A program made the translations under genes and the position numbers. From Octopus vulgaris (taxonomy: Eukaryota), in assembly GCA_951406725.2 (NCBI GenBank), contig OX597817.1, positions 52,328,001-52,392,000 of the forward strand: a DNA stretch of 64,000 nt, in the 5' to 3' direction. The notes under the pieces were generated by a model. That model was not told the DNA's origin. It ran no database searches and saw nothing but the letters and a program-made list of their open reading frames with translations. Of the stretch, positions 11,163 to 50,520 are shown in pieces. Numbering within the stretch: position 1 is the stretch's first letter; each line of letters begins with the position of its first letter.

Positions 11163-11184
11163 ATGTACCCTACACAGCCTCCAG
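11163..11184 (+). CDS. AGO2: Argonaute coding exon 1 (MYPTQPP-G)
   Basis: ATG TAC CCT ACA CAG CCT CCA G|GTATGT: 22 coding nt ending in phase 1, like the short MY.. first exon of vertebrate AGO2 as I recall it. In-frame stop upstream at 11022-11024. Lies just downstream of a CpG-retaining, CT-rich promoter-like zone. The symbol denotes the AGO clade; exact orthology is not established. Confidence 0.75.
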
Positions 11185-12964
11185 GTATGTTTACATCTTA
11201 TAACATTTGCCCCATATTCGTCTAGCTTGCTCTATGCCATGCTACTTCATTTAATAAAAACGAAAAGTTCTATATTTTCTTGGTTCCACTTCATGTATAA
11301 TATTTCGTGTATTTTAAGATACGTAACCAATTTACATATATAAGGAAACCTACCAGAAACTAATTATATAGTTGCCCTTAAGTTTTTTGCTTGCACCAAA
11401 CCTAAGCAAGTGCAAAGACTTAAGTAGATATAAATATATATCCTAATGGTAACTTACCATAATTATAGAATGGTTTTATTTTTTTATGGCCTTTCGTTTT
11501 ATAGGTTCGTGAAAAGAAATAAATACTAATAAATGTTGGTTATTAAATTATTTGTAATGCCTAAGTTTTGCCGACAGCACCTAAAAAGGTACGGAGAGAT
11601 TTATTACACACCTGAATGATTGAAAAATATTTTTCTTATGTAAAAGAGAAAAGAATTCTCTCTTTTTTTTCTATCTCTCTCTCACATAACTGTGTTAATT
11701 CCAGTGCAACCCTTCGTTTTTGTCAAAGAAATTTTTTAAAATTTAGGAGATTTTTTTTTTCTACGCACATTGAGTAATTAAAAAAATAATTTTTGGTACT
11801 TTGTAAAAATTTAAGATATTTCTTAGGCACCATCAGTGATTGAAATTGAAATTATTGTTAATTAGCAAAAATTTAAGAGGTTTCTTACACACATTGTGTG
11901 ATTAAAAACCTTTTTTCTTTTTTTGGTAAATGGCAAAAATTTAGAGGTTTCTTTAGGCACCACGAGTGATTGAAAAAAAAATGTGGAGTAATTAGCAAGT
12001 TCTTGATTGGAGAAGTTTATTGAAGGAATAAAAAGAAATTGATTACATTTAAGTAGTTAACTAAGAAACACATACAGAAGTAATTCTTAACATCTTGCAA
12101 CCAAACTTTAATCAAATGCTGGGAGCATTAAGTACATACCTAAATGGTTGCAAAATTAATAGCAATTTAAGATCTTTAAAAGTTGTGACCATCACTCATT
12201 AGTTTCATCTGATGGACTTTTAATAACTTTTTATGATATAGTTGTTTTGTTTTTAGTACAACAGCTTTTTTTGTTGTACTTGTTTTTGTGAAACGAAGTT
12301 GTTAAAATTCCATCGGAAGGGTGAAGGTAATGTGTGTGTGTGTGTCACTTGCATTGCAGAATGTATTAAATAATGCTTAGCTTGGTGTGCTCTATACTTT
12401 CAGCCCCTTTTCTTGTTTATGCTGGGTATCAAATATTCAAAAGCCCCTAAAAAATATCTGAACTAAATTAACCAACGAAAAAGAAAAATTTTAGGACAAA
12501 TCAACGGAAGTTAATTATGTTATAATTAAAAGAAAAAGGGGTTAGCTGTTCAGTTATTTTCCCCCAACATTATTAACGTATGCAATTTTCGTGGATTGAG
12601 ACGAATATAGCATTTAGTTTTTATGTAATGTTTCTTACCAACTATTAGTTTTCGACTTGAATCCCATAAATTTATGACCCTTTATGTAAAAGAAATATAT
12701 AAAGGAAAAAGATCCAATTAAAAAGAAACATTATCTGCGCTAGTTTTAGGTTTGCTGAAAAAAAAAACTTAAAGTTTCCACTTCCATCCTATATATATAT
12801 ATAACACTTTTATAGTGTGCTGTATGTATGTATATATGTACATACAAAAACATTAAGTAAGCAGTATTGATAATTAACAAAATATGAAATGTATATTAAA
12901 GGAAAACAAAAAAAGTGGGTTGCATGCTTTATATATATCTATTTTATACACACACACACACATA

Positions 12965-13001
<37 letters not shown>

Positions 13002-15167
13002 TTTTATGAGAGAGAGAGTTTGTGGTGGGGGTATGTCGAATATTAAGTATTGCTTTTATTACTGGTTCTACCAGTGAGTGGTATTAATTGATATATATAT
13101 AGATATATATATTTGTTTTAATACCCGTGTAGTCAGTGGAATAACGGAAACAGATTAAGACTATTTTCGTGTTCAATACCGCGGGAGGAGATACTGCCCT
13201 CGGTTCTGGGGTAGTTGACTCAATACCAGTCATATGTTAGTCGACTGTACCTTTCCAATAAATTCATTTCAGCGTGTCAGTGTATGACATTATTAAATCT
13301 ACCTTGTATAATAATCATTAATTGTACTGTTTTATCAGAAGCTTCTCTGTTATTAGTGATAGACCTATTCACTCCAGTTACTACGAGGCCGCTACCACGC
13401 ATAACACTAGTAAATAGTTTCTAGTTACTAGTATACCACCACTACCATACATAACACTAGTTCTACTACAACTACTATTATTATTATTACTTTTTGTATC
13501 AGGCATCACCATCATCATCAGTGAAGTATCTTGTACACGGTCGCTCGACCAGAAATCTCTAGAGTAACACCATGCCGCCTTTTAAATATACAAGAGTACA
13601 TGAGAATTAGATAGTCTTTGATAAGCTCTTAAACAACGATGGTCGCGGTTGGAATGTCTTTGATCACATGTCTGCTCGACCAGTTTTGAACTGGATCTCA
13701 ATAACAACAAACAAATCAGTCAAGCAGGGGGGGGGGGGGCTCTAAGGACTTGCTAGAAATAATAGTAACCGACTCTTTCAGATCATTATTCGTTTTTGAA
13801 CAAAGAAAGAAGGACAACAGTTAACGATGTCTGGCGAAAAGACAGCATGGTCATAGGTGGAATTCTTTTGATCGTAGTTCGGCTTAGGTGAATGGTGGCT
13901 GGGGTTGCCTCGGGGCCGAACACTATTGCTGGACTGTTATTATTTTTGGCTGCTGCTGCTGCTAACACTTTTGACACCACCATCATCACCACCACCATAT
14001 ACTACTATTACTACGACTTATAAAACGGTACTGTTGTTGTTTAACCCTGACCAACAAATCTACAGTCCGAGGAGTTTCCAAACCGTGACCATCCCGTTTA
14101 TTCTCCAGGCACAGTATATTATGAACTGTTATACACTCCTTTTTTTTCTTAAGATGGTTAGAGTGTAACTGTAGGCTGCTGTTTCTAGCAAATCGAGCGA
14201 CCACGTTGATCTGAGTCTGTGACGCAAACCCACTCACACCTGACATTTTATAATGGTTAATTGGCTTAATTGTGACCTCAAGATCATTACCGTTAGCTAC
14301 CGAATTATAACAGATCTTATATTGTTAGTTTCTTGTATTGTTGTATTTGCTTCTTTGTAGCTAAACACGAAATCCTTTCTGCTTTAAGGGAAGTGAGAAA
14401 AATCTGTAGCGTCATCCATGCCTTTCCCAAATGAAATAACTCCAGCTGGGAATTGAAACTGAATCTCAGTCGTAGATTTCTGAAACCATACAACACTTGC
14501 TAAACTTAAAGTGCTGTGATTTATACTATACTTGCTACTACTACGACTACTATTATTACTTAGTTTATCACCAGTTTTTTTGTATCAGTCTCTCTGAAGT
14601 TTATGAGTTCGAGAAATAAGAATTTCTCGTATAGGGTCAAGACCACAAATTTGTAAATAGACGCACACTCGCACACGAGGGGTTGTTGAAAAAGTTTCTG
14701 GCTTTGAGTAAAAGAAAATACGGGAGGATCAGCTATAACTATATTGAACATGTTCCCCCTCTCAGATTCACACATTTATTGCAGTGGTCTTTCAGTTTTT
14801 CTGAATGTATATGGGAAAGATAACACTTTTACCCTTCCCCCCAAAATGTCTCAAAATATCACCCTGAGTCCTATATGTGAAGTTGGGCCCATATTACATG
14901 CTTTAATGCGCTAATAATTTATTTCCCTGAGTATGTACTGCTGAAATTAGGGTGCATCTTATATGCTCTGCATCTTTTATACCAGTGGCTCCCAACCTAT
15001 GTATGGTTTGCAATGGTAGTACTGGGTTTGTGAACTAAATTCAAAATTTCATATATATATATAATGATGGTTGCCCCTTCGTTATTGAGTATGGCCATTG
15101 CATGAAGCTTAACTGTTATTGGTGCTGTTATCGAATGTGACTTTTTAGCCCAGCTAAAGATCTACAA

Positions 15168-15328
15168 TATACATACATATATGTACATACCTACATCTAT
15201 ATGCATATATACATATATGTACATACCTACATCTATATGCATATATACATATATGTACATACCTACATCTATATGCATATATACATATATGTACATACCT
15301 ACATCTATATGTATATACACATGCATAT
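15168..15328. repeat. 36-bp minisatellite, about 4 copies (ATATACATATATGTACATACCTACATCTATATGCAT)
   Basis: Direct tandem repetition; produces the [15 protein letters not shown] artefact. Confidence 0.9.
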
Positions 15329-15596
15329 ATGGGTGCAGGACATCAAAAAAACGTTGAACACAATGAGAAACAAAAACATGGAAACAAACTATTTTTCAAA
15401 CAACGAAAAAACAGAGTACAAGACATACAACACAAGGAATATTCTCCTTCTTCAGTTGTCCCTGTTTCATCTACTTTGCGTTTCGAAGGTAAGGGCAAGA
15501 TGCGACTTCATTGAAACAGTCCTTCCTGCAAAGCAAATTAAATAAAATTTGGGATTTTTTTGTGGAGGGGTAAAAGTAGTAACAAGAACATGACAG

Positions 15597-15642
<46 letters not shown>

Positions 15643-18600
15643 AAGATAAGCATATTAAAAGGGGTTCGTGGAAAAACACCTTTAAATAAAAGGGGTCTTT
15701 GGTAGTGTAAAGGTTGAGAATCATTGTTTTATACCATCAAATGTAGGTTCCGTGTAGTCACACCATTTGCTCAATGCACCAATCAAATCTCCCTCCATGT
15801 TCTGTCAACTGTCTTTTAACATGGGCACTATATATTTAATTCCAAGAAGACCACTCTAATATACAAAACCCTTTTATAAATCACAAGAATCCATAGAGAT
15901 AATGCTTCAACTGTAGGTTTTGTAAAGAAGGCTTGTCTATCGCAGATAATTGCATTCACGAGTTCTTGATGCTTGTTCCCTGCAGTGAGATCCATTCAGG
16001 TAATGTTGTGTCCTTCTTGATTATTATATGTGACAAACTAGCAGAGTTGTTATGCATGTCAGACAAAATGTATTGTGGCATGTCTTTTGGCTCTGTATGT
16101 TCTGGGTTCAAATCCTGCCAAAGTCAACTTGGTTTTCGTGCCTTCAGAATTGACAAAATAAAGTACTAGCTGGGTATTGTTCTCTTCTGTCAAAAATTGC
16201 TGGCCTTAAACATTGCAATGGATTGGTGTTCCATTCATGAGGATATTGTGATCTTGGTCACTTATCCCCATGGAAACTAGGTAACTGGCCTTAGTCCAGG
16301 CACTCAAGAAAACTTTGAAAATAAAAAAAAAATAACTACAGCACTAATCAATGGATTCTTTGTTAGGCTTATCATCATAGAACCGTTGACTATTTATAGT
16401 AAACAAAACCTCTTTAGCCTGCAAAAATCCTCATTGATTTGACATCCATTCTTTTCATACGTTGATAAACTCTATAGTACAGCTTACTAAACCACTGCTG
16501 CTCAATTCTGCATCAGTTGGTCATTCTCTAATCTGACCGCATTGCTTCCCTGTTTTCTTTACCTAGATATTCCTCCCCAGCATCAATAATACATGACACT
16601 TGCATGTCTATACTTGCACAACACTACCTTTTCTTGCATACGTTGGTTAATACATGTCAGAAGTAAATGGATCCAGCGATGTAGTTATGTATTTATAAAA
16701 CAAATATTGTCACTGGGGCTTGGCACATTTGTCCGACTCCTCGGCTCTTGTCAGAGCATCTAACCCATACTAGTGTAGAAAAAAGGACGTAAATGATAAC
16801 TTCCCCATATTATCATGGGTTGGACATGACTTCTTGATTTAGTCTTTCCTGGCCAGATGCCCTTCCTAATTGCTAACCCAGTCATCCCCTACAATGCATA
16901 GGAACACTGTGTACCTATCCTAAAACTTAGTATGCACAATATGTAAATAGTTGGCAAATTTTAATCAACTGAACCCATCTTTTTTTTTTCCTTCTTCGCA
17001 TATAAGTGGATTTTTTATTTGCCACAAGGGGATAACACAGGAAAGGACAACTCAATCTGATTGGGGTCAGATGGAAGAATGGATATTACATTAAGATGAC
17101 ATAAAAAATTTACAAAATAGAATATAAATAAATCGAATGACAGAACTGACCGGAAGACATTATGGATGGAGTGGGGAGGCAGGTTCAATTTGGACCCCAC
17201 GAGCCCCACCTCACCACTGATACCTGAGATACATCCTGCATTGCATTCATGAGGTTACATTCATTTGCAACATCCGTGCTACATTCTTCCATTGATTTTC
17301 AAACATTTTCATTTAATTGCAGACATAGCTATGTGGTTAAGGGGCTTGCTTTGCAGCCATGTGGTTTTGGGTTCAGTCCCACTGCACACCATCTTTGGTA
17401 AGCCTCTTCTAGAGGATTACAACTAGACAAACACATGTTACCTATTTCTTTACTGCCCACAGAGTGGACAAACAAGGACAGACAAATGGATTAAGTCAAT
17501 TACATTGACCCCAGTGCGTAACTGGTACTTAATTTATTGACCCCGAAAGGATGAAAGGCAAAGTCGACCTTGGCGGAATTTGAACTCAGAATGTAACGGC
17601 AGACGAAATACTGCAAAGCATTTCATCCGGCGTGCTAACAATTCTGCCAGCTCGCTGCCAAAGACACACATATTACCATTTATTACATTACATTCAATTC
17701 GCCATACATTATTCATTTCATTATCCATCCTCTTTTCTTTCACATTTCAAGTATACTGAAGACCTTTGCTGAAGCAGTGACAAATAAGGGTCTTCAGTAT
17801 ATCTGAAATGTGAAGAAGATGATGTATAATGTATGTCGAATTGAAAGTAATAAATAATGTGCAGGTGGCACATAAAAAGCACCATTTGGGCGTGGCCGTT
17901 GCCAGTACCGCCTGACTGGCCCTTGTGCCGGTGGCACATAAAAGCACCCACTACACTCTCGGAGTGGTTGGCGTTAGGAAGGGCATCCAGCTGTAGAAAC
18001 TCTGCCAGATCAATACTGGAATCTGGTGCAGCCATCTGGTTCGCCAGAGCTCAGTGAAATCATCCAACCTATGCTAGCATGAAAAGCGGATATTAAACGA
18101 TGATGATGATGATATTTGTGTTTAGTTGTAATCCTCTATCTTCTACTATAGCTCTGGGCCAACAAAGGCCTTGTGAGTGAATTTTGTAAACAGAAACTGT
18201 ATGGAAGCACATGTCTTGTGAATAGATATATACATAGCCGGGTGGTTAGATCGTTGGGTAAACTGCTTCGCAACATCGATCCGGCTCCTGCGCTATAGGC
18301 TCAAATCCTGCCAAGGGTAATTTTACATTTCATTTTTAGGTGTAGGAGTGGTTGTGTGGTAAGTAGCTTGCTTACCAACCACATGGTTCTGTGTTCAGTC
18401 CCACTGCGTGGTACCTTGGCAAGTGTCTTCTACTATAACCTTGGGCCAACCAAAGACTTGAGTGGTTTTGGTAGACGGAAACTGAAAGAAGCCCATTGTA
18501 TATATGTATGTATGTTTGTGTGTGTGTTTGTCCCCCCCAACATCGCTTGACAACCGATGCTGGTGTGTTTACGTCCAAGTAACTTAGCAGTTCGGCAAAA

Positions 18601-19366
18601 GAGACTGATAGAATAAGTACTAGGCTTACAAAGAATAAGTCCTGGAATTGATTTGTTCGACTAAAGGCGGTGTGCCAGCATGGCCACAGTCAAGTGACTG
18701 AAACAAGTAAAAGAGTACATGTGTGTGTTTGTCCTCTTCCAGTGCTTGATTGCTGGTATTGGTTTGTTTACGTCTCTGTAACTTAGCAATTTGGTAATAA
18801 AGTACTAAAGTTGCAAAAAAAAAACAGTACTGGGGTTGATTTGTTTAACTAACCCGACAATGTGGTGCCCCAGCATCACTGCAGTCCGATGACTGAAACA
18901 AAATAGGAAAGAAGATAAATTTCCAAAGTTCAATCATTACAACAAATAATGAACTTTGACCTTTCCTAAAAATGACCCCTAATTTTATAAGATAAAAGTG
19001 GTAAACGTCTAATATTTTCTACACTAAATGTCAGTGATGAAGAACACCTTTTGAAATGGAATACATAGGTATCCGTTATCAAAAGAAATCATTCTAACTA
19101 TTAAAAACAGAACAAAAAATCAGTCCAATGAGGAGGTGCAGGCGTAGCTGTGTAGGTTTGCAAAGATCTGCTTCACAACCACAAGGTTTTGAGTTTGGTT
19201 CTATTGCATGGCACAATGACTTCATGAGAAAGTGTCTCCTACTGTGGCCTCATGCTGTCCAGTGCCGTGTCAGAAGACGTGTGTGTGTTTACACACACAC
19301 ATCATGCAAGCATGGAAAGCAGGCTTTACATAATGATGTGGATTATATATATATATATATATATAT

Positions 19367-19941
19367 TTCGAACTTTAGGCCTCACTGAGGAAATGACCAG
19401 CGACCGAGACCTCTGGAAATATGCTGTACGTGAGAAGACCAGGCAGGACAAGTGAGCCCAGCCCACTTATGAATGCCTTTCCTCCCTTGGACACAAAGAC
19501 CTGTTGAGGCAAGCGAAGTCGATATAGAACCTCATCTGACGACAGGCACCCATGCCAACCCCCTTTGCTTGCGAAGACATGTTGGGGCAAGCGAAATCGA
19601 ATTGAACCAGCCAGGATCCCTGGTCTGGTGGTACGTAAAAAGCACTATCCGACTCGTGGCCGATGCCAGCGCCGCCTTGGCTGGCTTCCGTGCCGGTGGC
19701 ACATAAAATACACCAATCCGACCGTGGCCGTTGCCAGCATCGCCTGGCACCTGTGCAGGTGGCACGTAAAAGGCACCCACTACACTCAAGGAGTGGTTGG
19801 CGTAAGGAAGGGCATCCAGCTGTAGAAACATTGCCAGATAAGACTGGAGCCTGGTGCAGCCTTCTGGCTTCCCAGATCCCCGGTCGAACCGTCCAACCCA
19901 TGCTAGCATGGAGAACGGACGTTAAACGATGATGATGATGA
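19367..19941 (+). mobile_element. RTE LINE 3' end, 5'-truncated
   Basis: FRTLGLTEEMTSDRDLWKYAVREKTRQDK* plus the same 3'UTR and (GAT)n tail. Confidence 0.9.
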
Positions 19942-20040
19942 TACAAGTGTATGTATATACACTCCGTGAGTGTGTGCGTATGTATACACATGTGTGTGTG
20001 TATACGTATGTATATACACTCGTGTGTTTGAGGATGTGTG

Positions 20041-20084
<44 letters not shown>

Positions 20085-20538
20085 GATAGTACATGCTTCT
20101 TTCAAGTTATTCAATACAATTAGTTTTTAAATTCATCCACCTTAAACCCAAGACGCAGATAATCATCTTGATAAACTTGACAGCCTCCTAAATTGTTTCT
20201 GTTGTGAGTTAAACAATGACACTGACAGTTGTTATACCATGTGACATCCATGCCCACCTCAGTAGACCGAGAGCTATGTTAAATATGTTGATATCCATTT
20301 GAATGAGGTGGTCACTACATACGTCTAAGAATTCTGAAAGAAGAAAAATCATTGCAACAGGCGCAGGAGTGGCTGTGTGGTAAGTAGCTTGCTTACCAAC
20401 CACATGGTTCCGGGTTCAGTCCCACTGCATAGCACCTTGGTCAAGTGTCTTCTACTATAGCCTCGGGCCGACCAAAGCTTTGTGAGTGGATTTGATAGAC
20501 AGAAATTGAAAGAAGCCCATCGTATCTGTGTGTGTATT

Positions 20539-20586
<48 letters not shown>

Positions 20587-23287
20587 AGTGTCCGTGTTTG
20601 TTCTCCCAACATCACTTGACAACTGATGGTGGTGTGTTTACATCCCCGTAATTAGCGGTTTGGCAAAAGAGACCGATAGAATAAGTACTACGCTTACAAA
20701 GAATAAGTCCTGGGGTTGATTTGCTCGACTAAAGGCGGTGCTCCAGCATGGCCGCAGTCAAATGACTGAAACAAGTAAAAGTAAAAGAGAGTATATAGTA
20801 AGAAATTTGCTTCCCAATCACATGGTTCTAGGTTCAGTCCCACTGCACGGCACCTTGGGCAAACTTTAGTACCATAGATGGGCAAAATGCTGCTAAGCAG
20901 TTTTCCCCATGTGCTAACTATTCTAGCAACTTGCATGGAACAGAAGGTTTTTAATATTATTGGGTAAATAGGGTGGTGTGCTGGCAGAATCGTTAGCTGG
21001 TGGGTGAAATGCTTAGTGATATTCCATCTGCTGTTATGTTCTGAGTTCAAATTCTGCCGTGGTTGACTTTGCCTTTCATCCTTTCGAGATCGGTAAATTA
21101 AGTACCAGTTGCATACTGGAGTCGATCTAATTGATTGACCCCCCCCCCCCACCTCCAGCCAAAATTTTGGGCTGTGTGTTTCTTGTAGAAAAGAATTGTT
21201 AGCATGCTGGGCAAAATGTTTAGCAGTATTTTGTCTGCTGTTATTCTCTGTGTTCAAATTCCGATGGGGTTGAATTTGCCTTTCATCTTTCAGGGTCGAT
21301 TAAATAAGTACCAGTTACACACTGGGGTCAATATAATTGACTTAATCCGTTTGTCCTCTCTGTGTTTAGCCCCTTGTGGTTAGTAAAAGAAATAGGTATT
21401 TCGTCTGCCGTTATGCTCTATGTTCAAATTCCGCCGGGGTTCACTTTACCTTTATCCTTTCGGGGTCGATAAATTAAGTACCAGTTACACACTTGGGTCG
21501 ATGTAATCAACTTAACCCCGTTTGTCTGTCCTTGTTTGTCCCCTCTGTGTTTAGCCCCTGTGGGCAATAAATAAATAAATATTATTAGGTTAGCCTTGTT
21601 ATCTACATCTTCAAACCATCAGTTTCAAGAAGACCATGACTTCTAACATAATCCACTACTGCCACAAGTATAACTTCAAACCAAGGGTCCATTTCGTAGC
21701 AGCCCAACTTGTTATACTGCCCCATGCATTTCTTGCAGCCATTAACTTGTTCAAAATCAAAAGAACTGTATTAATTTCACTAATTTTGGGGAGGTCTGCT
21801 AAGCCCCTAAGCATTGTCCTTCTGACAAATTCAGTCATTGACCCATTACCATTCAGGTTACTCTATCAACTACAATGCATATTTTCTTTTATTTGTTTCA
21901 ATCATTTGACTGTGTTCATGCTGGAACACTGCCTTTAGTCGAACAACTTGACCGCAGGACTTATTTTTTGGTAAACCTAGTACTTATTCTGTCAGTTTCT
22001 TTTTGCCGAACCGCTAAGTTACAGGAACATAAACACACCGGCATCGGTTGTCAAGCAGTGGTGGGGGAGCAAACATACACACACATATATATGATGGGCT
22101 TCTTTCAGTTTCTGTCTACCAGATCTACTTTTGAAGCTTTGGTCAGCTCGAGACTACAGTAGAAGTCACTTGCCCAAGGTGCCACGCAGTGGGACTGAAC
22201 CCAGAACCATGTGGTTGGTAGGCAAGCTGGCAGAATCGTTAGCATGCCTGGCGGTATTTCGTCTGTGATTACTTTCTGAGTTCAAATTCTGCTGAGGTCG
22301 ACTTCGCTTTTCATCCTTTCAGGGTCAATTAAATAAGTACCCGTTACGCGTTGGGGTCGATGTAATCGACTTAATCCCTTTGTCTTTGTTTGCCCCACTA
22401 TGTTTAGCCCCTCCCCCCGTGAGCAATAAAAAAAAATATTCACAATGTTTTAAATTAATCCTGCATTATCTTGGAAATTTGAGATTTTGAATATGTGATT
22501 GTTTATCCCCAAAATGACATTGTAGGGTAGGTGTGAGAAACCAGAATATTTGGGCTGGAATATGGCCGGTTTAAATGCGAAAGGGTTAAATGAAAAAAGT
22601 TAATGATGTGATTGATATGACCGTTATACCCTTAAATATTTGAACTAGTTTTCTCATCATAGCAGGATACAGTCACATTGTGTGCTATCATACCCTCTGG
22701 TATTCTTAAGGTGCCTCTTGTATTATCGGAGTATAATAACGATAGTTTCTTCATCTCAGAAATTCAGATAAAATCTGAATTGTGATGGGAGTTAGTGAAT
22801 TCTTGCCCCTACCTCCACCAAACTGTGATAAACTTATCTGATTTGGGAGAAACGGCTGTTTGAGAAAACTCTTGGTCTGTGTCAGCCCCAAATCATTATC
22901 CTTGTTTTAAAGCCTACTTTTCCATGCTTGCATGGGTTGGAGAGAATTTGTTGAGGTAGACTTGCTTATGGTCAGATTCTCTTCCTGTTACAATCCCTCA
23001 TCTGTTTCCATGTAAGATAATAATTTCCCATGATCAGACATGCTTCTATAGACTGAAAACAAATGCTGCTGCTTGCATGATGGGGACACTCATCTCACAG
23101 TCAAAACAGAGAGATAGTAATACACACACATCACACATGTAAATGTACATACATACACAATGGGCTTCTTTCAGTTTCTATCTACCTAAGTGACACACAG
23201 GGCTTTAGTCAGCTTGAGGCTGTTGTAGAAAGCACTTGCCCAGGGTGCCATGCTGTAGGACTGAACTCGGAACTAAGTGGTTAAAAA

Positions 23288-23708
23288 TAGGGTTGTGGGG
23301 TCAAAACAAAAAATTTTGACTCTGACTCCTGTACTATTGGCACCTCTGATTCTGACTCCCGTACTATTGGCACCTCTGATTCTGACTCCTGTACTATTGG
23401 CACCTCTGATTCTGACTCCTGTACTATTGGCACCTCTGAATCTGACTCTTGTACTATTGGCACCTCTGAATCTGACTCTTGTACTATTGGCACCTCCGAT
23501 TCCGACTCTGACTCCTCTTTACGTAATTAACTGATTGTGGTCTACATATCCCATAAAGCATATGCATATGCTTGTACTTTGAGTCAACCTATATGTTATA
23601 ACTGGTTTATATTCAAGAATAAAGATATTGTGAGTCGGAATCAGTCGGTATAGTTTTAGCGATTCCAGCTACCCCTTAATTGTTTCCGATTCCGACTCCT
23701 CAGCCCTG
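23288..23708. mobile_element. hAT-type MITE with an internal 30-bp tandem array, inserted into a SINE
   Basis: 8-bp TSD GTTAAAAA at 23280-23287 and 23709-23716; imperfect TIRs TAGGGTTGTGGGGTC / GACTCCTCAGCCCTG; about 6 copies of GATTCTGACTCCTGTACTATTGGCACCTCT. Confidence 0.85.
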
Positions 23709-23835
23709 GTTAAAAAGCAAATTTCTTACCACATAGTCACATCTATGCTCTTGAGCAACGGTTCTCAATCATTTTGTACCCATGGATCCCTTTAATTCCT
23801 GTTTTACTCAGGTGGACCCTCTTAGCCTCTGATGT

Positions 23836-24289
23836 TTAACCCTTTCATTACTGTATTTCTGTTGAGATGCTCTGTACTTCTTTCAATTAATTTTAAATCT
23901 AACAAAGAATTTAGTAAAATAACTTCGTTATCATTCAGCGAGTGTTAGGAACATAAATTGTGACTAAGGTTTGGTGGAAGATTTTAATTCAAAACTTATG
24001 AAAACAATACATTTGTACTATAGAGCCAGAAGTGGTTTCAGCTGGGTTGGTATCGAAAGGGTTAATGCCTTGACCTTTTTACTACCATATTTCTGTTGAG
24101 ATGTTCTGTGTTTCTTTCAATTAATTTTAAATATAAAGAATTTAGTAAAATAACTTAGTTATCATTAAGCTGGTGTTAGGAGCATAAATTGTGACTAAGG
24201 TTTGGTGGAAGATTTTAATTCAAAACTTATGAAAATGAGACATTTATACTCAGAGGCAGTTTCAGCCGGGTTGGTATCGAAAGGGTTAA
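23836..24289. mobile_element. piggyBac-like MITE tandem dimer (TTAA-flanked), nested in a hAT-like MITE (about 23755-24810)
   Basis: TTAACCCTTTC...GAAAGGGTTAA termini, about 225-bp unit x2. Confidence 0.8.
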
Positions 24290-26595
24290 AAAGTCCTATT
24301 TTTATAACTTGTTAAGGTTGTCTCTACAGATTTGCTATATAACACAGTATTGATTTCTAAAAAAGACCCATTTAATACACTTTATAGTATATTGTGGTTG
24401 CTTAATGAAATGTGGTGTTCCTACAAGTTATTAAACTCTATATTTTTATAATTAAATATGATTAGGACAGCCCCGCCTGACTGGCGTCCGTGACGGTGAC
24501 ACGTAAAAGCACCAACCGATCATGGCTGTTTGCCAGCCTGCTCTGGCCCCTGTGCCAGTGGCACGTAAAAAACACCCACTACACTCACTGAGTGGTTGGC
24601 GTTAGGAAGGGCATCTAGCTGTAGAAACACTGCCAAATCAGACTGGAGCCTGGTGCAGCCTTCATGGGCTGCCAGACCCGGTGATGATGATATTAAAACA
24701 ATTAAAACATTGTGTATTGTTGAAATATAATCAATTTATTGCATATAATTTTTAACAAGCAGAATCTTATGGACCGCTAAGGGTCATGTGGACCTCAGTT
24801 AAGAACCACTTCTCTAAAATTAGTTTGATAAAGTTCACAAAAGGAAATGTTTTGTGAACATTCATAAAATAGACTTCTCTGTGAACTTGCTACATTTTGT
24901 GAAGTTTGCTTACTGAATTGGAACTGATTTTCAAGGCTTTTAGGATAAAATAGTTTCTAATAATCTAGATGTTCTCTAAGTGTTATCTTGGGTTAACTAA
25001 ACACTGTCATTGGCTTGGGAACCGAATGCAGCAGGGTGCAGGGGTACCCCCTAAAATATTTTAGGAGCAATAAGAATGCTTTGAGTGTCCTCTTGAAAAA
25101 CCCAATCATCAGAATGAACAAGTGTTAGAACACTTTTGGACTGATTTGAAACCTTGCTTTTCCGTTATTGGGTTTATCTGTCTTCATGTTCTGAGTTCAA
25201 ATTCTGCCGTGGTCGACTTTGCCTGTCATCCTTTTAGGGTCGATAAATTAAGTACCAGCTTCATACTAGTGTCAATCTAATCAGCTGGCTTCCTCACTTC
25301 CCCAAAATTTTGGGCCTTGTGCCTAGAGTAGAAAAGTATATTTAAGGCGGTGAGCTGGCAGAAATGTTAGCATGCCGGGCGAAATGCTTTGCGGTATTTC
25401 ATCTGCCGTTACTTTGTGAGTTCAAATTCCACCGAGGTTGACTTTGCCTTTCATCCTTTCGGGGTCGATAAATTAAGTACTACTTACGCACTGGGGTCAA
25501 TGTAATTGACTTAATACCTTTGTCTGTCCTTGTTTGTCCCCTCTATGTTTAGCCACTTGTGGGTAGTAAAGAAATAGGTATTTCATCTGTCTTAACGATC
25601 TCGGTTCAAATTCCACCGAGGTTGACTTTGCCTTTCATCCTTTCAGGGTTGATAAATTATGTACCAGCTGCGTACTGTGGTTGATCTAATCGATTGCCCC
25701 CCCCCCCATTTCAGGCCTTGCACCTAGAGTAGAAAAGATTATTAGATTTATCTGATTTGATTGATGTACAAAATCGTTAATTATTATTATTATTACACCT
25801 ATCTTTGTTGTAATATGAAGATTGAAAAAGTTGACCTTCTTTGGCAGGGTGGGGGTGATAGGGAAAGAGACCTGGGTTTGCACCCCCCAAGCAAATTTCA
25901 TTCCAGCATTTATGAACACTGTATTGAGATGATAGACTTTGCTGAGAGCCTTTGTTTTAATAAAATAGATATATGAAAGACTTTTGTCTAGTAAAATAAA
26001 TTTCAAGGGAAAAAGTGCATTGTACCATTTAATTAAAGGGGATTTCTCGTGACTTAACATTTGCATGTAGAAAAATGATTCTACTTGTAATGTGAGAAGA
26101 ATTATATCTGAAAGATGTATTTTGGGGTTGAGGTAGAACATTCTTAAGATGTATACAAGATTATATATCTTACAAATAAAATAGGTTGGATGAGTGTGAG
26201 AGGGTGTGCCTGTGTTTTCTGATAAGCGTGGCTGTGTGATATAGAAGTTTGCTTCACAACCATGAGGTTTTGGGTTCAGTCCCTGCACTTGGTGTAAATG
26301 CCCTCTGTTATAGCCCTGGTTTGACTAATCAATTCCTTGAGTGCATTTAATAAACAGATACTGGAGAAGGTGTGTGTACACTTAATGATAATCCTTTCTA
26401 CTATAGGCACAAGGCCTGAAATTTGGGGTAGTTGATTACATCGATCCAGTGCTCAACTGGTACTTAATTTATCGACCTCGGAAGGATGAAAGGCAAATTC
26501 AACCTCCGCAGAATTTGAACCCAGTACGTAGCAATGGGCGAAATATCGTTAAACATTTCACCCAGCGTGCTAACGATTCTGCCAGCTCGCTGCCT

Positions 26596-26635
<40 letters not shown>

Positions 26636-35192: not shown

Positions 35193-35235
<43 letters not shown>

Positions 35236-35285
35236 CACTCACACATATATATACACACACACACACATACACACATATATATATA
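35116..35285. repeat. (TA)n/(CA)n compound microsatellite (one of many, e.g. 2648-2725, 19950-20080, 34530-34606)
   Basis: Direct reading. Confidence 0.9.
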
Positions 35286-38200
35286 GGCTGTAATGGATAT
35301 ATATAATACTGTACATTTTGATTAATTAATTAATATATACATATATAAACTATAGGCTTTCAATTTGCTCCACCAAATCCATTCACAAGGCTTTGGTTGA
35401 CCCAGCATTGTGAAAGACCTTTGTCCAAGGTACCATGCAGTAGGACTGAACTGGGAACCATGTGGTTAAGAAGTGTCTTTCTCACCACACATGCAAAACT
35501 GTGCCTATAGTTACACTGTATATAGTGAGGATAGATGGATTAGATATATACACATATTGACCTGGTAGTTGATTATAATTTGCAAAATATATTTTCTCAT
35601 CAATAAAAACTTTTAAAAAGAACCTGTTTTATACTCAGCTGTTACCGCTTTCATTATCTACCTATTAGTTTCTCCCTTGACAGTATGAGTGTACAGAAGT
35701 GTGTGTGTTGATGTATCTGTACCTATTTAGTTATAGCAAAATGTTTTTAGAGCATGAGAGAGACCTCTATCCTTATTTATCACAGGTGTTTGGCACCAAA
35801 ATAACACTGTCAAATGAATTTAGTGATAAAGGATTTGTAGAACATAAGGGAAAATAGGTTTGGTCCTGAGACCCCAAGTTGTCTCCAGTTTATCTAGATT
35901 ACACCTCCAAAGAGTTTTTAAGGTACACATGATTTGGTTTCATGTTTGGAAAAATATTTCAAGTAAAATTTAATAACATATGATCAGTAAAAAAACCCCA
36001 AAAAACCCCTGAAAATAATAAGTAGAATCTTTTATAGTTGACACGCGTTATCTGTAGTATTGTGGGAGGGGGCACAATTCCCCTACCTTCTGGGTTCTCT
36101 TACAGTGTTGATCCTTTCCAGCTGGGATCTATCTGCAGGAACCCTACCCACCTGACCTCTGGCCAAAACCTAACAGATTCCCTCAACTCGTGTTGCCATA
36201 CATGTCCATCCCGTACGACAGCCCCAAGGTGAAAGAGGTCCTTGCTGGTCATGCTTCCACTCACATTACCTTCCTCACTCCTCTTCCAGCAAGGCCCCTC
36301 AGCTATTTGCAAGACATCACTGACCACCCTATACTTCCAGCCCATTTCAGCCCCACAATATCACAGTTTAATTTGTGACGAATGCAACACACTTGATTGT
36401 ACCATGTTATTCTGGACCAGTGATGAATGAATCTGTGATAAACAAGGATAGATGTTTTTAATTCAACTCGTTACTGGATTCTTCATTAATGTCATACATG
36501 TAGAGACAGTTGACTTTTTGCATGAATTGAATTGAGAAGAATGCCGGTGGCATGTGTAAAAAGATTCGAGCGAGGCCATTGCTAGTACTGCCTGACTGGC
36601 CCTGTGCCGGTGGCATGTAAAAAGCACCCACTACACTCTCAGAGTGGTTGGCATTAGTAAGGGCATCAAGCTGTAGAAACTCTGCCAGATCAAGATTGGA
36701 GTCTTGTGTGGCCGTCTGGTTCACCAGCCCTCGGTCAAAATCGTCCAACCCATGCTAGCATGGAAAGCGGACGTTAAACGATGATGATGTTTGCAATTTG
36801 GTACCCTTTATTAGCATCTGTGCCAAACTTGATAGAAAATAATTCCTTACAGTTTCCCATCGCATCTCTCAGTTGATCCAATAAGATTTATTAATAGAAC
36901 AGAAAACATGATATGTAAACAAATATGTTTATTTTTGAAGTGCTGAAATATATTGTAGCAAGTAGAAAGATATATTTTTTTCAATGCATAAGTACTGATA
37001 GGAGATCATATATATAGGATATATTAAAGAGCACCATCCGAGTGTGATCGTTGCCAGAGCGGCATATGGCCTCCGTACCGGTGGTACATAAAAGACACCA
37101 TTCGAGCGTGATCGTTACCAGCATCACCTTACTGGCATCTGTGCTGGTGATTGTGTAAAAGATTCGAGCGAGGTCATTGCCAGTACCACCTGACTGGACC
37201 TCATACCGGTGGCACATAAAAGCACCCACTACACTCTCGGAGTGGTTGGCGTTAGGAAGGGCATCCAGCTGTAGAAACTCAGCCAGATCAGATTGGAGTC
37301 TGGTTCGCCAGCCCTCAGTCAATCGTCCAACCTATGCTAGCATGGAAAGCAGACGTTAAATGATGATAATGATGGGTTGAGAGTTGAATGATATACATAA
37401 TTTTATGGACGTTGTGCATACTGCATACCTGTCTGTACCATGTTTTTGTCACAATAAAGACTCTTTAACGAAACAATTGTAGCAATACAAAACAACCCAT
37501 TCGTCTGTTTTATTACATAAAATCGTCTTGTACTGTACTTCCGCAGCATATTGATGACACTACCACAAAAGCCTTCCTGAATTAGGGCAAGTTCTCTAGC
37601 TGCTTTGCCACTCTTGTCCAACCAGCTCATGGTATTGTCCATCCATTTAAAGCGGTGAGCTGGCAGAAATGTTAGCATGCCGGGCGAAATGCAGAGCGGT
37701 ATTTTGTCTGCCGCTACGTTCTGAGTTGAAATTCCGCCGAGGTCAACTTTGCCTTTCATCCTTTCGGGGTCGATTAAATAGGTACCAGTTGCGCACTGGG
37801 GTTGATATGATCGACTTAATCCGTTTGTCTGTCCTTGTTTGTCCTCTCTGTGTTTGGCCTCTTGTGGGTAGTAAAGAAATAGGTATTGTCCTTCCATTAT
37901 ATTCATTGCCTGCTTTTTGATCTATTACACCCTACTCTTCCTTCCATGATAATGTTTTCCAGACCCCTGCTTTTTTGAATTAGGCCAAAATAGATGAGCC
38001 TTTTTTGTTTTTCACATATGTAATGAGCAATGAGCATTCCTAGTTTCTGACTGCATAATAATACATCCTCAGTGGCCTTAGACATGGTTTCTGTCTACTA
38101 AATTTATTTACCAGGCATTGGTTGGCCCTGTGCTAAAAAAAAAAAATACTTGCCCAAAGAGCTACACAGTAGGATTGAACTGAGAACCCACTTGGCTGCA

Positions 38201-41200
38201 GAATGAGCTTCTTAACCACATGACTATGTCTGGTTATGCTTAAAGTTTATGATAATGGAAAGGTCGTTTTATTTTGTCTTTAAGCTTAGCAATTTCAGCA
38301 ATCGAAAAAATCTAAACTATATTTGTTTTATTCACTGGATTGAGAGAAAAGGAAGCTAAAAAGAATAAGGATTAGTAAATGGTTTGTTTGCTAATGAAGT
38401 AATGGGAATGAAAGAGACTGGTTTTTAGTGAATATTTCTGGATTATATAAATAAATACATTTATTGTTTGTTAAAAAATGATGGTAGAAGAGAAATGAAC
38501 TGTATTTACAGAATGGATGTTTGGGACTGGATATATTTTTGTAGTGTACCAAGAATGAAGGAAAAGTAGGCCATGCAAATAGAATAGACTTCAGGGTCTG
38601 AGATTAAATGGAAATTTAGCACAAAAGATAGGAGGGGAAGAAACAAAATGGTAAAGATTGATTTACAGTGTTTCTTGAATGTTTTGGAATAAACACACAA
38701 ACAAAATAAAAGTAAACACAAAAACAACAACTAAAGACTCCAGTAGTAATGAAAACTATATATTTGTATTGGTATTTTTTGTGTATGTTTTTGTTTTGTA
38801 AAAAATGTTTTACAGTTGTTAGCTGTTACGTCCCCGTAACTTAGCAGTTCGGCAAAAAGAGACCGACAGAATAAGAACCAGGCTTACAAAGAATAAGTCC
38901 TGGGGTTGATTTGCTTGATTAAAGGCGGTGCTCCAGCATGGCCGCAGTCAAATGACTGAAACAAGTAAAAGAGTAAACTTAGAAGCCATGAATTAAGGCG
39001 GCAAGCTGGCAGAAATCTTAGTATGTCGGGCGAAATGCTTAGTGGTATTTCATCTGTCTTTATGTTCTGAGTTCAAGTTCCACCGAGGTCGACTTTGCCT
39101 TTCATCCTTTTGGGGCCAATAAATTAAGTACCACTTGCATACTGGGGTTGATTTAATCAACTAGTCCACACCCCAAGAGTTTCAGGCCTTGTGTGTAGAA
39201 AAGAATAAAGCTTTTGAACTATCTTTTTATTCATTACTTGTTTCAGTCAATAGACTGTGGCCATGCTGGGGCATTTCCTTAAAGAATTTTAGTTGAATGA
39301 ATCGGTTATTTTTTTTAAAGCTTGGTACTTATTCTATTGGTCTCTTTTGTTGAACTGCTTAGTGATGGGGATGTAAACACACCAACAAGGGTTGTCAAGT
39401 GGTGTTGAGGGACAAACACAGTCACAAATATAAATATGATGGGATTGTTTCAGTTTTATTGAGTTCAAATTCTGCCAAGGTCGACTTTGCCTTTCATCCT
39501 TTCGGGGTTGATAAATTAAGTACCAGTTACGCACTGGGGTCGATGTAATCGACTTAATCCGTTTGTCTGTCCTTGTTTGTCTTCTCTGTGTTTAGCCCCT
39601 TGTGGGCAGTAAAGAAATATATTGTGTGTGTGAATACTTGTATAATATTCAACATTCTAATTTTATCTTTTCTTCTGCCTCTTTTTTGTTTTTGTTTTGT
39701 TCTCATGTTTTTTTGTATTTCTTTTTATTTTTCAGTCTTTGTTTTTTTTTCTTTTGTATTTTATCTTTATTTTAATGTTGTACTTTTTTTTCTTGCTTTC
39801 TTATTTTTCTTCTCTCCTTCCCATTATCTATCTGCTGATCAATGTACAACAATGCCAAAATTCCATTCCTACAGATCACATCATGTCTTTCAGTTAATTA
39901 TGAATAGTATATATACACCACCAGAGAGTCTATTTTGAAAATCTGCTCATAAACATCCATTGCAGGTGGAAACCACTTTCTTCAAGAATTCTCTCTAGTT
40001 TCCTTTTATATTCTGTTTTGGAATTTGTATTGATTAGCAGTGAGGACCAATATTTGGAACTAACAAAATGTATGGATTCCATTGTAGTTTTGGAAATAAA
40101 TTATTGTTGCCACTGCTGTTTGTTTGTTTGTTGAGCGAGGTGGTCTTCGTATCAGAGCTCGCAAGATCGCGCCTCAGGAGAAGTCCAAAATGCGGTCCTT
40201 TGCTATTCGTAAGACCCGCAGAAGAGAAAGCAGGTTAACCCCTGACACTGAGAGCGTTGACGGATGGATGAATGCGTATCCAGGCTCAGTGGTTGCGTAG
40301 CAAGTTGGGGACAAGAAACAAGAAGAAAGAGTGAGAGAAAGTTGGGGCGAAAGAGTACAACAGGGGTCGCCACCACCCCCTGCCGGAGCCTTGTGGAGCT
40401 TTAGGTATTTTCGCTCAATAAACACACACAACGCCCGGTCTGGGAATCGAAACTGCGATCCTCTGACCGCGAGTCTGCTGCCCTAACCACTGGGCTATTG
40501 CGCCTCCACTGCCACTGCTGTTGTTATTCCAATCAGTTCTAAAAGATTTCATCATCTTGAATATTCGCTTTTCCATACTTGCGTGGGCCAGATGGAATCT
40601 GTTGGGGGAGGTTTTCTACAGCCTGTTGTCAACCCTAGTCGAACAAATTGGCCCCAGTTCTTTTTTTTTTTTGCTGGTAGCATGTAAAAGCACCCACTAC
40701 CACTCTTGGAGTGGTTGGCATTAGGAAGGGCATCGAGCTGTAGAAACTCTGCCAGATCAAGATTGGAGCCTGGTGCAGCCATCTGGTTTGCCAGTCCTCG
40801 GTCAATCATCCAACCCATGCTAGCATGGAAAGTGGACGTTAAACGATGATGATGATGATGATACTTATTCTATCGGTCTCTTTCGTGGAAATGCTAGGTT
40901 ATGAGGACATAAACACACCAACACTGGTTGGGAACATGCCTGTTGTTAACCCAGAGCTATAATTGAAGACATTTGTCTAAGATGCCCCTCAGTGGGACTG
41001 AACCCAAGACTACATGATTGGGAAGCACCTCACATACAAATATAGCAGACCCCTCTGACCAAATATGCCATCTTTGGTTTAATTCAGGACTACAAAACTA
41101 TGTTGGGCATTAATTCAAAACTGTTATTTCGCACCCGGTCAGCCTTATTTGAGCAGAACTAAGGTCGAAAGCTTTGAATCGGTGTTGTCTTTTATTCAAA

Positions 41201-41382
41201 CTTAGTAAATATAGGCGCAGGAGTGGGTGTGTGGTAAGTAGCTTGCTTACCAACCACATGGTTCTGGGTTCAGTCCCACTGCGTGGCACCTCGGGTGAGT
41301 GTCTTCTACTATAGGCTTGGGCTGACCAAAGCCTTGTAAGTGGATTTGGTAGACAGAAACTGAAAGAAGCCCGTCGTGTGTG

Positions 41383-41416
<34 letters not shown>

Positions 41417-42130
41417 TATATATGTCTGTGTGCTTGTCTTTGCCCCCCACCCCCACAACATTGCTTGACAACCAATGCTGGTGTTTATGTCCCTGTAACT
41501 TATCGATTTGGCAAAAGAGACTGATAGAATAAGTACTAGGCTTACAAAGGATAAGTCCTGGGGTTGATTTGCTTGGCTAAAAGGTGGTGCTCCAGCATGG
41601 CTGCAGTCAAATGACTGAAACGAGTAAAAAAAAAAATGGTTTTTAAAAATAAAGGATTTACAATATCCTGTTTCTAACTCCTACCTTTTTCCCAGCAAGG
41701 TAGTACCCCCCCCCCCCCAATGAACAGACAGGTATTTCTTGGAAAACTGAAAACCAGACTACATTTCTTTGTATAAGGATGACAATTGCTTACAGGCATC
41801 CTACAGTGTTCAGACATAGATGTGTGCGTGCACGCACACACACACATACATGCAAATGTGTGCATGCACACACAAGTGCACAGATGCACATGCGTGCATG
41901 TGCACAAAGGTCTTTTGGTTTGTCTCTACCAAATCCAAATCCAAACCCTGGGCTACACTAGTCTCTTACCTAAGGTGGGACTGAACCTTAAACTAATTGT
42001 TTGTGAAGCAAGTTTCTTAACCATACAACCTAAGCTGTTTTTTTTCTTCTTTATTTTCCATCCTGATTTTCACCTTACATAAATGCGATGTTGGTATATT
42101 TATGCATTTTTTCTTTTTTTTTTCATTCAG

Positions 42131-42160
42131 GAGGGCCTGGCATGAACCCCCAAATTTCTG
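42131..42160 (+). CDS. AGO2: Argonaute microexon 2 (30 nt; GGPGMNPQIS)
   Basis: Long poly-T tract plus cattcAG acceptor, donor TG|GTAAGT, phase 1-1, Gly/Pro-rich peptide matching the flanking exons. Confidence 0.7.
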
Positions 42161-49070: not shown

Positions 49071-49085
49071 ATGACACTTTTCTTT

Positions 49086-50290
49086 TATCAAAAATTGCCA
49101 AGAAAGCTGAGGGTGTCTTGGCATCACTCACCAAGTCCTTTGTGAGCCACTCTCCGGCTATCTATCTGTGGCTTTATATAGCTATGGTACGACCTCACCT
49201 GGAATTTGCATCACTGGTCTGGAACCCCTATCTTGCCCAGGATATTAATTGTCTGGAAGCCGTTCAGCGACGTGCAACCAAGAGAATACCCTCCATCAGG
49301 CATTTGCCATATTCTGAATGCCTTACTTCCCTGGGCATGGACACATTGAAACTCCGACGTGTGGCAGACACCCATAAAATTATTAACCATCTTACAAACA
49401 ATAACTCTGAGCACCTTTTCAAACTCCACCTGTCTAACACCCGTGGACATGTTTACAAAGTCAGAAAACAGCACAGCTCCCATGACTTTCGGAAACATTT
49501 TTTCACGCTAAGAGTTGCTGAAGCATGGAACAGACTGCCGGCATCAGTTGTTAGTTGTCGGAGCACTGCATCCTTCAAAACTTCCATGCTTCCTGAGATT
49601 CACCAACACTACACCTGATTTTTCTCCCCTCCTTACACATGCAAGCATGTATCTGACTCATACACTGTTCACTTCCCAGACATTTGTACTCTAGCAGCAT
49701 AGCCCGGCATTGCCCGGGTATGTAAGAGCCCCTGGAGCAGACATGATGCTCGCTGTGAATTTTAAAAAAATTCCTGCCAATTTGTGAAAGATATTGTCGA
49801 AAATATGTCATCTTGAATTTGAACGCGATTTCCCAAAATGGCATGGTTTTATCGATTTTTTTCTGATGGTAAGGTATTGCATGGAACACTAACATCAGAA
49901 TTAAGTTTCTTAGGGTAACACTAAGCTTCACAATGAGTTTGGTGAAAATTGATTGCAAGTTGCGAAAACTACAACAGAAAATGTGTTGCATATAAAAAGC
50001 TTAGATTCTCGACCCCCATGTCGAATTTATCGATTTTTTTCAGAACTGGGGGAACTTTTCAAAATTTTCGCTGCGTTAGTTTTGAATTATGACATTGGGC
50101 TATGTGTGTGTCAAGTTTCATCAGAATCGGTTGAAAGCCGTGGTTAGGGTGAGGGTACAACATGACAGACACACAGACAGACAAACTGCCGTTTATATAG
50201 AGAGAGATTACTGCATATGCTTTATATGCACTTTTGACAAGTTGTGGTGCACCTGAGCACTGTATACAATAATTTCATTGTTATTATTAT
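49086..50290 (+). mobile_element. CR1-like LINE 3' fragment (ORF remnant 49118-49618, 3'UTR, (TTA)n tail) interrupted by a nested element
   Basis: LYIAMVRPHLEFASLVWNP...LEAVQRRATK...TRGHVYK...RKHFFTLRVAEAWNRLP is the canonical CR1 ORF2 C-terminus. Confidence 0.9.
49688..50208 (+). mobile_element. Helitron-like non-autonomous element nested in the CR1 3'UTR
   Basis: 5' CTAG...CCCGGcattgCCCGGG hairpin, (ACAG)n near the end, 3' TTTATATAGAGAGAT; CpG-rich relative to its surroundings. Confidence 0.55.
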
Positions 50291-50312
50291 AAAATTTCTG
50301 TTTTGGTTTCAG

Positions 50313-50520
50313 TCCCAGCATTACAACCTGCACAGAGTAGTATCGTTGATGTTCCAACAACGCTTCCAGATTTTGTCTCGCCATCACGGCCTAATGTCGG
50401 CCAGCTTGGCAGACCGATCCAGTTACGAGCAAACTTCTTCAAGATTTCATTTCCTAAATACAACATTCACCATTATGAGGTGAGCATATCACCAGACAAA
50501 TGTCCACGCCGGGTAAACAG
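50313..50520 (+). CDS. AGO2: Argonaute exon 4 (start of N domain: ...PSRPNVGQLGRPIQLRANFF...YEVSISPDKCPRRVNR)
   Basis: Acceptor tttcAG at 50312, donor AG|GTAAAT. Hallmark AGO motifs GRPIxLRANFF and PDKCPRRVNR. Confidence 0.95.

What the first reader, a model, noticed from the sequence alone, without database searches (positions are those of the whole stretch)
11163..50520. Argonaute with a modular, cassette-encoded Gly-Pro low-complexity N-terminus
Seen: between the 22-nt start exon and the first N-domain exon lie two extra exons, 30 nt (GGPGMNPQIS) and 180 nt (about 12 GG[L/M/I/P]PP-type pentamers). Every junction is phase 1, so four in-frame isoforms are possible. Synonymous variation among the 15-nt units (CTG/TTG/CTT/CTA, GGC/GGT, CCA/CCT) suggests selection on the peptide. 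Known: low-complexity N-termini occur in Drosophila Ago2 (Gln-rich) and plant AGOs (Gly-rich), but miRNA-class animal AGOs usually have short ones. Inference: a splice-switchable disordered/polyproline module that could tune RISC condensation or bind GYF/WW/EVH1-type domains (PPG motifs) in a lineage with an expanded miRNA repertoire.
Basis: partly seen in the sequence, partly recalled or inferred. Interest (0 to 1): 0.85.

Follow-up and report, generated by a model that had tools for sequence, protein, structure and literature searches.

The report
Octopus duplicate Argonaute, likely non-slicing
The glycine-proline tail exons are real and spliced but resemble a common feature of invertebrate microRNA Argonautes and were never seen skipped; the more notable point is that this gene is a fast-evolved cephalopod duplicate that has lost a catalytic residue needed to cut RNA.

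Summary
All four exons are real: AG/GT ends, phase 1. Twelve exons in the window encode residues 1-441 of the O. vulgaris protein CAI9720985.1 exactly. Contigs from 3 of 4 runs join exon 3 to exon 4, with boundaries implying exon 2 upstream; no skipping was seen. The premise that miRNA Argonautes have short tails fails for protostomes: 48 of 49 have tails of 40 residues or more, and cassette-like isoforms are annotated in several molluscs. The pentamer array is unusual but labile (12, 11, 9 units in three Octopus species) and reads PPGG, not the GYF ligand PPG-hydrophobic. The stronger finding lies partly outside the window. This is copy B of a duplication older than the octopus-cuttlefish split. 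It evolved about 2.4-3.5 times faster than copy A and carries Asn at human AGO2 catalytic D669. The guide pocket is intact. Best reading: a non-slicing, repression-only miRNA Argonaute with a disordered tail, parallel to vertebrate AGO1/4. Loss of slicing is predicted, not assayed.

The parts
11163..11184 (+). Coding exon 1 (start codon, 7 codons + 1 nt)
   Evidence: same start in O. vulgaris, O. sinensis and O. bimaculoides models
11185..42130 (+). Intron 1, 30.9 kb; only one other weak Pro/Gly-type candidate exon found in introns 1-3 (18152-18172, unsupported)
   Evidence: no Rfam hit in the window
42131..42160 (+). Exon 2, 30 nt, symmetric phase 1; resembles the cassette-like segment at the same place in bivalve AGO1 and in octopus paralog A
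   Evidence: inclusion inferred from contig boundaries
46066..46245 (+). Exon 3, 180 nt, symmetric phase 1, 12 GGxPP pentamers (11 in O. sinensis, 9 in O. bimaculoides)
   Evidence: spliced contigs in 3 of 4 runs
50313..50520 (+). Exon 4, end of tail and start of N domain; a second AG 6 nt downstream (50317-50318) would drop two codons
   Evidence: the O. bimaculoides model lacks those two residues
52669..52789 (+). Exon 5 (N domain)
53972..54153 (+). Exon 6 (N/L1)
54706..54842 (+). Exon 7 (L1; B-specific N258, K263)
55923..56057 (+). Exon 8 (L1/PAZ; B-specific L309, D311, E314, I326, A328)
56607..56694 (+). Exon 9 (PAZ)
58493..58576 (+). Exon 10 (PAZ)
60829..60892 (+). Exon 11 (PAZ)
63576..63647 (+). 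Exon 12 (L2/helix-7 region; B-specific E433 = human D358). MID and PIWI, with the catalytic-site Asn (residue 744), lie beyond the window end

Best explanation
The window holds the 5' half of copy B of a cephalopod duplication of the miRNA-class Argonaute. SHOWN: exon structure and splicing; identity with CAI9720985.1; a second copy A in the same species; a duplication older than the Sepia/octopod split; faster evolution of B followed by near-stasis; Asn at the D669 position. INFERRED: B loads miRNAs and silences through GW182/TNRC6-type repression and deadenylation, because the 5'-phosphate pocket, seed contacts and most Trp-pocket residues are kept, but it cannot slice. Octopod A keeps DEDH and would do any slicing. 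The Gly/Pro tail is the usual protostome AGO N-terminal extension built from small phase-1 exons. Exon 2 is probably old. Exon 3 grew by 15-nt slippage and is kept as a flexible, uncharged spacer whose composition matters more than its copy number. It is included in the main transcript and at most modulates stability, localisation or loading.
For: 441 of 441 residues match P0007. Gapless alignment to human AGO2 with offset 75 puts D672/E712/N744/H882 on D597/E637/D669/H807; tetrad as in PMC11643337. Of 210 fetched proteins with this motif, 196 have Asp, 7 Asn (all B clade, including two unnamed Logan proteins from short, evidently spliced contigs), 5 Gly and 2 Ser. Asp-to-Asn at the third tetrad residue is the non-cleaving TtAgo D546N mutant (PMC5587774). 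Tree: cephalopod A+B 100/100, B 100/99, A incl. Sepia 98/93; octopod-only A+B clade rejected, p-AU 1.7e-42. Relative rates: 51-58 B-unique vs 15-23 A-unique changes with each of 6 outgroups, p<=5e-4. Octopus vs Argonauta B core 820/838 identical. K709, R710, Y529, K533, Q545, K566, K570, R792 and R812 equivalents kept (positions other than the tetrad, I365, K709 and R710 are recalled). Tail: survey and annotated isoform indels, unit counts, contigs.
Against: No biochemical test. The catalytic codon is outside the window, so it is read from annotated proteins, not from this DNA. The regularity of the array is exceptional (period-5 score 0.85 vs at most 0.57 in 49 others) and the synonymous bias suggests selection, which fits a specific ligand or structure as well as a spacer. 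Homologous tail segments are dropped in annotated isoforms of Mytilus, Mizuhopecten, Aplysia, Babylonia and Sepia A, so skipping in B remains plausible. Octopod B also changes conserved L2/helix-7, MID and PIWI positions (33 listed), more than loss of slicing requires. Whether A slices is also unknown.
Confidence: 0.62

Rival explanations
1. One reading: exons 2 and 3 are regulated cassettes that switch a condensation or proline-ligand module on and off.
For: Symmetric phase-1 exons with all combinations open; tail segments vary among annotated isoforms of other mollusc AGOs and of paralog A; N-terminal isoforms control AGO specificity in C. elegans CSR-1 (PMC12908457).
Against: Only the inclusion form in 3 contigs from three studies and in all B protein models covering the region; B records of O. 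sinensis and O. bimaculoides carry no isoform suffix while O. sinensis A has X1/X2; strong splice sites; no canonical GYF/WW/EVH1/SH3/profilin motif, no charged residue, one aromatic residue in residues 1-77; unit number varies 12/11/9.
Confidence: 0.15
2. B is neofunctionalised beyond loss of slicing: altered helix-7/L2, PAZ and MID residues plus the private tail give it a different guide set, target-recognition behaviour or compartment, for example in neurons.
For: 33 otherwise near-invariant positions changed in all four octopod B proteins, then conserved, among them the equivalents of D358, A367, D374, Q636, A754 and V791; 13 of the 23 positions covered are shared with the unnamed Logan B; coleoids gained many miRNA families (PMC9699675).
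Against: No expression or loading data; many changes are conservative; relaxed constraint after duplication and loss of catalysis could give the same pattern.
Confidence: 0.18
3. The genomic Asn is converted to Asp by A-to-I editing (AAY to GAY), making slicing an editing-controlled switch.
For: Asn to Asp is a one-step A-to-G change; a squid AGO transcript has validated editing sites in the PIWI region at 24% and 94% (PMC4384741 supplement).
Against: Two Logan B proteins from short, evidently spliced contigs read Asn; the squid primers translate to A-type sequence and begin downstream of this codon (my reading); B carries other changes beside the active site.
Confidence: 0.04
4. B is a decaying duplicate and the repeat exon is a neutral minisatellite.
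For: Faster rate, lost catalytic residue, variable repeat number.
Against: Core 352/352 identical across three Octopus species over the part compared and 820/838 to Argonauta; spliced contigs; synonymous excess in the repeat.
Confidence: 0.01

Closest known systems
Protostome miRNA-class AGO (miAGO clade: mollusc AGO1, Drosophila Ago1)
   Same: Full N-L1-PAZ-L2-MID-PIWI set (Pfam list), about 71-81% identity to other protostome AGOs, M[FY]P start and a Gly/Pro-rich tail with small variable segments.
   Different: Second copy; Asn at D669; regular 12-pentamer array; accelerated core.
Vertebrate non-slicing AGO1 and AGO4
   Same: miRNA-class paralog from a lineage-specific duplication with a broken tetrad; AGO4-named proteins have Gly at the same position.
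   Different: Independent origin (cephalopod clade 100/100); Asn, not Gly; long Gly/Pro tail; only two copies found.
Cephalopod paralog A (XP_036368909.1, CAI9740324.1, Sepia CAE1331421.1)
   Same: Sister gene, 722/838 identical in the core, with a short variable segment after the start.
   Different: DEDH in octopods, D-D-D-H in Sepia; short tail; almost frozen (834/838 Octopus vs Sepia); lies on a contig of different length.
Argonaute N-terminal extensions (C. elegans CSR-1a, WAGO-1/3; Arabidopsis AGO1)
   Same: Low-complexity extension that can be isoform-specific and affect loading (PMC12908457).
   Different: No RG/RGG, no Gln tract, no charge; isoform specificity not shown here.
Teleost Ago2 with impaired slicing
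   Same: Lineage-wide weakening of slicing in a miRNA AGO (PMC7765534).
   Different: There it is the only slicer that is affected. That one of the teleost changes is Glu to Asp, as in Sepia A, is recalled, not read.

Membership tests
miRNA-class AGO (miAGO clade) | N, L1, PAZ, L2, MID, PIWI domains | tested here: met
   Pfam list for P0003; gapless alignment to human AGO2 residues 22-859
miRNA-class AGO (miAGO clade) | Closest relatives are miRNA-class AGOs | tested here: met
   All named best hits are AGO1-4-like; sister to paralog A. No siAGO or PIWI rows were in the tree.
miRNA-class AGO (miAGO clade) | 5'-phosphate pocket and seed-contact residues | tested here: met
   Y529, K533, Q545, K566, K570, I756, Q757, R792, R812 equivalents kept; K550 is Arg (positions recalled)
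miRNA-class AGO (miAGO clade) | GW182 tryptophan pockets | tested here: inconclusive
   F587, P590, V591, D619, L650, F653, Y654, F659, K660, R688, L694, Y698 kept; A620G, I651M, E695D changed (positions recalled)
miRNA-class AGO (miAGO clade) | Loads miRNAs in vivo | not testable with these tools
   needs immunoprecipitation and small RNA sequencing
Slicer-competent Argonaute | DEDH/DEDD catalytic tetrad | tested here: not met
   D-E-N-H in 7 of 7 B-clade proteins covering the site
Regulated cassette exon | Symmetric, frame-preserving | tested here: met
Regulated cassette exon | Both inclusion and skipping products exist | tested here: inconclusive
   Inclusion only, in 3 contigs and all covering protein models; contigs drop minor forms and 1824 joints were not shown
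GIGYF/Smy2-type GYF ligand | PPG followed by a hydrophobic residue | tested here: not met
   0 matches in residues 1-77; consensus from PMC10187677. CD2BP2-type binding was not tested.
WW / EVH1 / SH3 / profilin ligands | PPxY, PPLP, PPR, FPPPP, PPxxF, basic PxxP, poly-Pro of 5 or more | tested here: not met
   0 matches; motifs recalled
Intrinsically disordered AGO N-terminal extension | Disorder | tested here: inconclusive
   52 of 77 residues are Gly/Pro, which suggests disorder; the AlphaFold model was poor throughout (mean pLDDT 43), so its low N-terminal score says nothing

The most novel reading that the evidence does not exclude
Coleoid cephalopods split their single miRNA Argonaute at about the time of their miRNA expansion into a frozen copy A and a non-slicing specialist B, whose changed helix-7/PAZ/MID surface and private (possibly tissue-spliced) Gly-Pro tail give it its own guides or neuronal compartment. 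In cuttlefish, where A has Asp for the catalytic Glu, no AGO-clade slicer might remain, since molluscs also lack siRNA-class AGO. A bolder sub-case (about 4%) is that editing restores the Asp.
Probability: 0.2. Interest if true: 0.75.

Novelty: new variant of a known kind. Interest (0 to 1): 0.45.

Why it matters
If confirmed, cephalopods, like vertebrates, paired a large miRNA repertoire with a duplicated, non-slicing Argonaute: a convergence testable with two recombinant proteins. It also bears on whether siRNA knockdown can work in octopus versus cuttlefish and squid, because molluscs lack siRNA-class AGO and DICER2 (PMC11114477) and depend on these two genes. The tail alone matters little unless skipping or a ligand is shown.

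Tried and rejected
No whole genome is held, so the 3' half of the gene and synteny could not be read. No listed run is on record as RNA; this is no evidence either way. X1 gave no spliced contig in the rows shown. The AlphaFold model from a 53-row alignment was uninformative and no fold search was run on it. Rfam: 0 hits in the window. A blastn and splice-site scan of introns 1-3 found no second repeat exon; one 21-nt candidate was not pursued. Supplements of PMC8382921 and PMC9068888 (one held file each) had no Argonaute entries; their full editing tables were not among the files searched and could bear on codon 744. Three look-ups of earlier findings returned nothing. The Met/Ile difference at the end of exon 6 in P0011 is read-through into the intron, not editing. 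The 15-nt gap in the contigs could be an 11-unit allele as in O. sinensis or an assembly collapse of a 48-nt perfect period-15 run; not resolved. No complex prediction was run, as no ligand motif supported one. A named squid, cuttlefish or Nautilus copy B was not found among the listed hits; this is weak evidence, since only the best 120 rows were listed.
Full report
Observation. The four exons lie exactly where stated, with canonical ends and phase-1 junctions, and all four combinations are open. Eight more exons follow in the window; the twelve translate to residues 1-441 of P0007 (CAI9720985.1, Octopus vulgaris) without a mismatch. Exon 3 holds 12 pentamers. Differences from the consensus are 22 synonymous and 10 non-synonymous (pN/pS 0.25; p=1.4e-4 on all, p=0.07 on 16 distinct changes).

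Splicing. I laid 4 of 20 listed runs on 41900-61100. In X9, X11 and X13 one contig each carries exon 3, exon 4 and exon 6 in series, with room for exon 5; X1 showed only short unspliced pieces in the rows given. The tool shifts boundaries left by the shared suffix. That rule reproduces the visible boundaries at five other junctions, and predicts 46065 for an exon 2>3 join and 46063 for exon 1>3; 46065 is observed in all three. So the full form is expressed. No skip was seen, but 1824 joints were not displayed and contigs lose minor forms. All B protein models that cover the region include the repeat; no shorter B cluster appeared in the best 120 of 7999 scored candidates. Acceptors of exons 2 and 3 have 16 and 17 pyrimidines of 17, against 12-17 for core exons; their donors score 8 and 7 of 9, against 5-8.

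The tail in context. Among 49 non-cephalopod invertebrate miRNA-class AGOs (one named, Met-starting record per species or paralog, picked by me; vertebrates, unnamed and partial records left out), 48 have tails of at least 40 residues (median 68), 10 are at least as long as this one (96) and 3 at least as Gly/Pro-rich. Annotated isoforms differ by in-frame loss of 11-16 residues right after the start in Mytilus, Mizuhopecten, Aplysia and Babylonia, and Sepia A varies by a 13-residue unit. Exon 2 resembles these segments by eye. What stands out is regularity (period-5 score 0.85; next best 0.57, Owenia). Unit number is 12, 11 and 9 in O. vulgaris, O. sinensis and O. bimaculoides, and the partial Argonauta protein shows no pentamer array in the part held. 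No canonical proline-ligand motif is present; GIGYF-type domains need PPG plus a hydrophobic residue (PMC10187677) and the repeat has PPGG.

What the gene is. The three Octopus species and Argonauta each have two miRNA-class AGOs. The tree joins both in one cephalopod clade (100/100), with A containing octopods and Sepia (98/93) and B containing octopods plus two unnamed Logan proteins (100/99). An octopod-only duplication is rejected (p-AU 1.7e-42; the group was named after seeing the tree). B has 51-58 unique changes against 15-23 for A with each of six outgroups, yet Octopus and Argonauta B are 820/838 identical. P0007 aligns to human AGO2 without gaps at offset 75: D597, E637 and H807 are kept, D669 is Asn (tetrad from PMC11643337). 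Of 210 fetched proteins with the motif, the 7 with Asn are all B. TtAgo D546N, the third tetrad residue, is used as a catalytic mutant and leaves the target intact (PMC5587774). This codon is beyond the window, so the link rests on the 441-residue identity. Sepia A and two Logan proteins like it have Asp for E637 (6 of 196 with that motif).

Mechanism. Most likely (0.62) B is a miRNA-loaded, GW182-recruiting, non-slicing effector, and its tail is a constitutive flexible extension expanded by slippage. Structure, splicing, duplication, rate and the substitution are shown; loss of slicing, GW182 binding and the tail's role are inferred. Rivals: specialised guides or compartment (0.18), regulated cassette (0.15), editing-restored Asp (0.04; two Logan B proteins read Asn), decay (0.01).

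Literature. PMC8125070 (passages) reports two AGO-clade genes in Euprymna and only one in octopus; current records show two in octopus. PMC11114477 (passages and section 5 part 1) finds no siAGO or DICER2 in molluscs; the passages found do not treat AGO catalytic residues. PMC9699675 (passages) documents the miRNA expansion; the search listing counts no 'argonaute' in it. Also seen: PMC12479628 (passages), PMC12908457 (passages and section 7; 36, 62), PMC5587774 (passages), PMC11643337 (passages), PMC7765534 (passages; 59, 63), PMC10187677 (passages), PMC3510085 (abstract, 75: shrimp Ago1 isoforms differ in PIWI, not the tail), PMC4384741 (supplement rows; 47, 50), PMC8382921 and PMC9068888 (supplement search only, no hits; 44, 45). 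Searches turned up no description of the tail or of the Asn substitution, but the library lacks most subscription papers and I read only passages. Both genes are already annotated in public databases. Human AGO2 pocket positions other than the tetrad, I365, K709 and R710, the domain boundaries, the WW/EVH1/SH3 motifs and the nature of the teleost substitution are recalled.

Verdict. Observation confirmed; interpretation partly supported. The tail by itself is a modest variant (about 0.25). The duplicate with a broken tetrad raises the overall interest to 0.45: a new variant of a known kind.

Noticed in passing
P0027, P0137, P0138, P0142 (Sepia pharaonis paralog A); P0146, P0147: The catalytic Glu (human E637) is Asp, so cuttlefish copy A may also slice poorly; with copy B, a cuttlefish might lack a canonical AGO slicer. 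A named Sepia copy B was not found.
   Followed up: partly
P0146 vs P0147; PMC4384741 supplement 1: Two otherwise identical Logan A proteins differ by Ser/Gly next to a Trp-pocket residue. A squid AGO transcript has validated editing sites at 24% and 94% in an amplicon covering this stretch; the 94% site may be this change (inference).
   Followed up: partly
window 50313-50318: Tandem acceptor 6 nt apart; the O. bimaculoides model lacks the two residues between them, while the three contigs use the upstream AG.
   Followed up: partly
window 46113-46160: 48-nt perfect period-15 run; contigs from three studies lack one 15-nt unit (allele or assembly collapse).
   Followed up: partly
P0005, P0012 vs P0091 (Tubulanus polymorphus): A nemertean also has two miRNA-class AGOs, one with Ser at the D669 position: a likely independent parallel loss.
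   Followed up: no
P0156, P0277: The unnamed B proteins have a 3-residue insertion just after the catalytic-site loop, possibly from an alternative splice site.
   Followed up: no
window 49058-49618 (+): Open frame resembling the C-terminal part of a LINE retrotransposon protein in intron 3 (by eye).
   Followed up: no
window 10150-10860: Long pyrimidine-rich tract with a 98-nt tandem duplication just upstream of the start exon.
   Followed up: no
window 62566-63410: 845-nt GACA-type minisatellite in intron 11 giving long spurious open frames.
   Followed up: no
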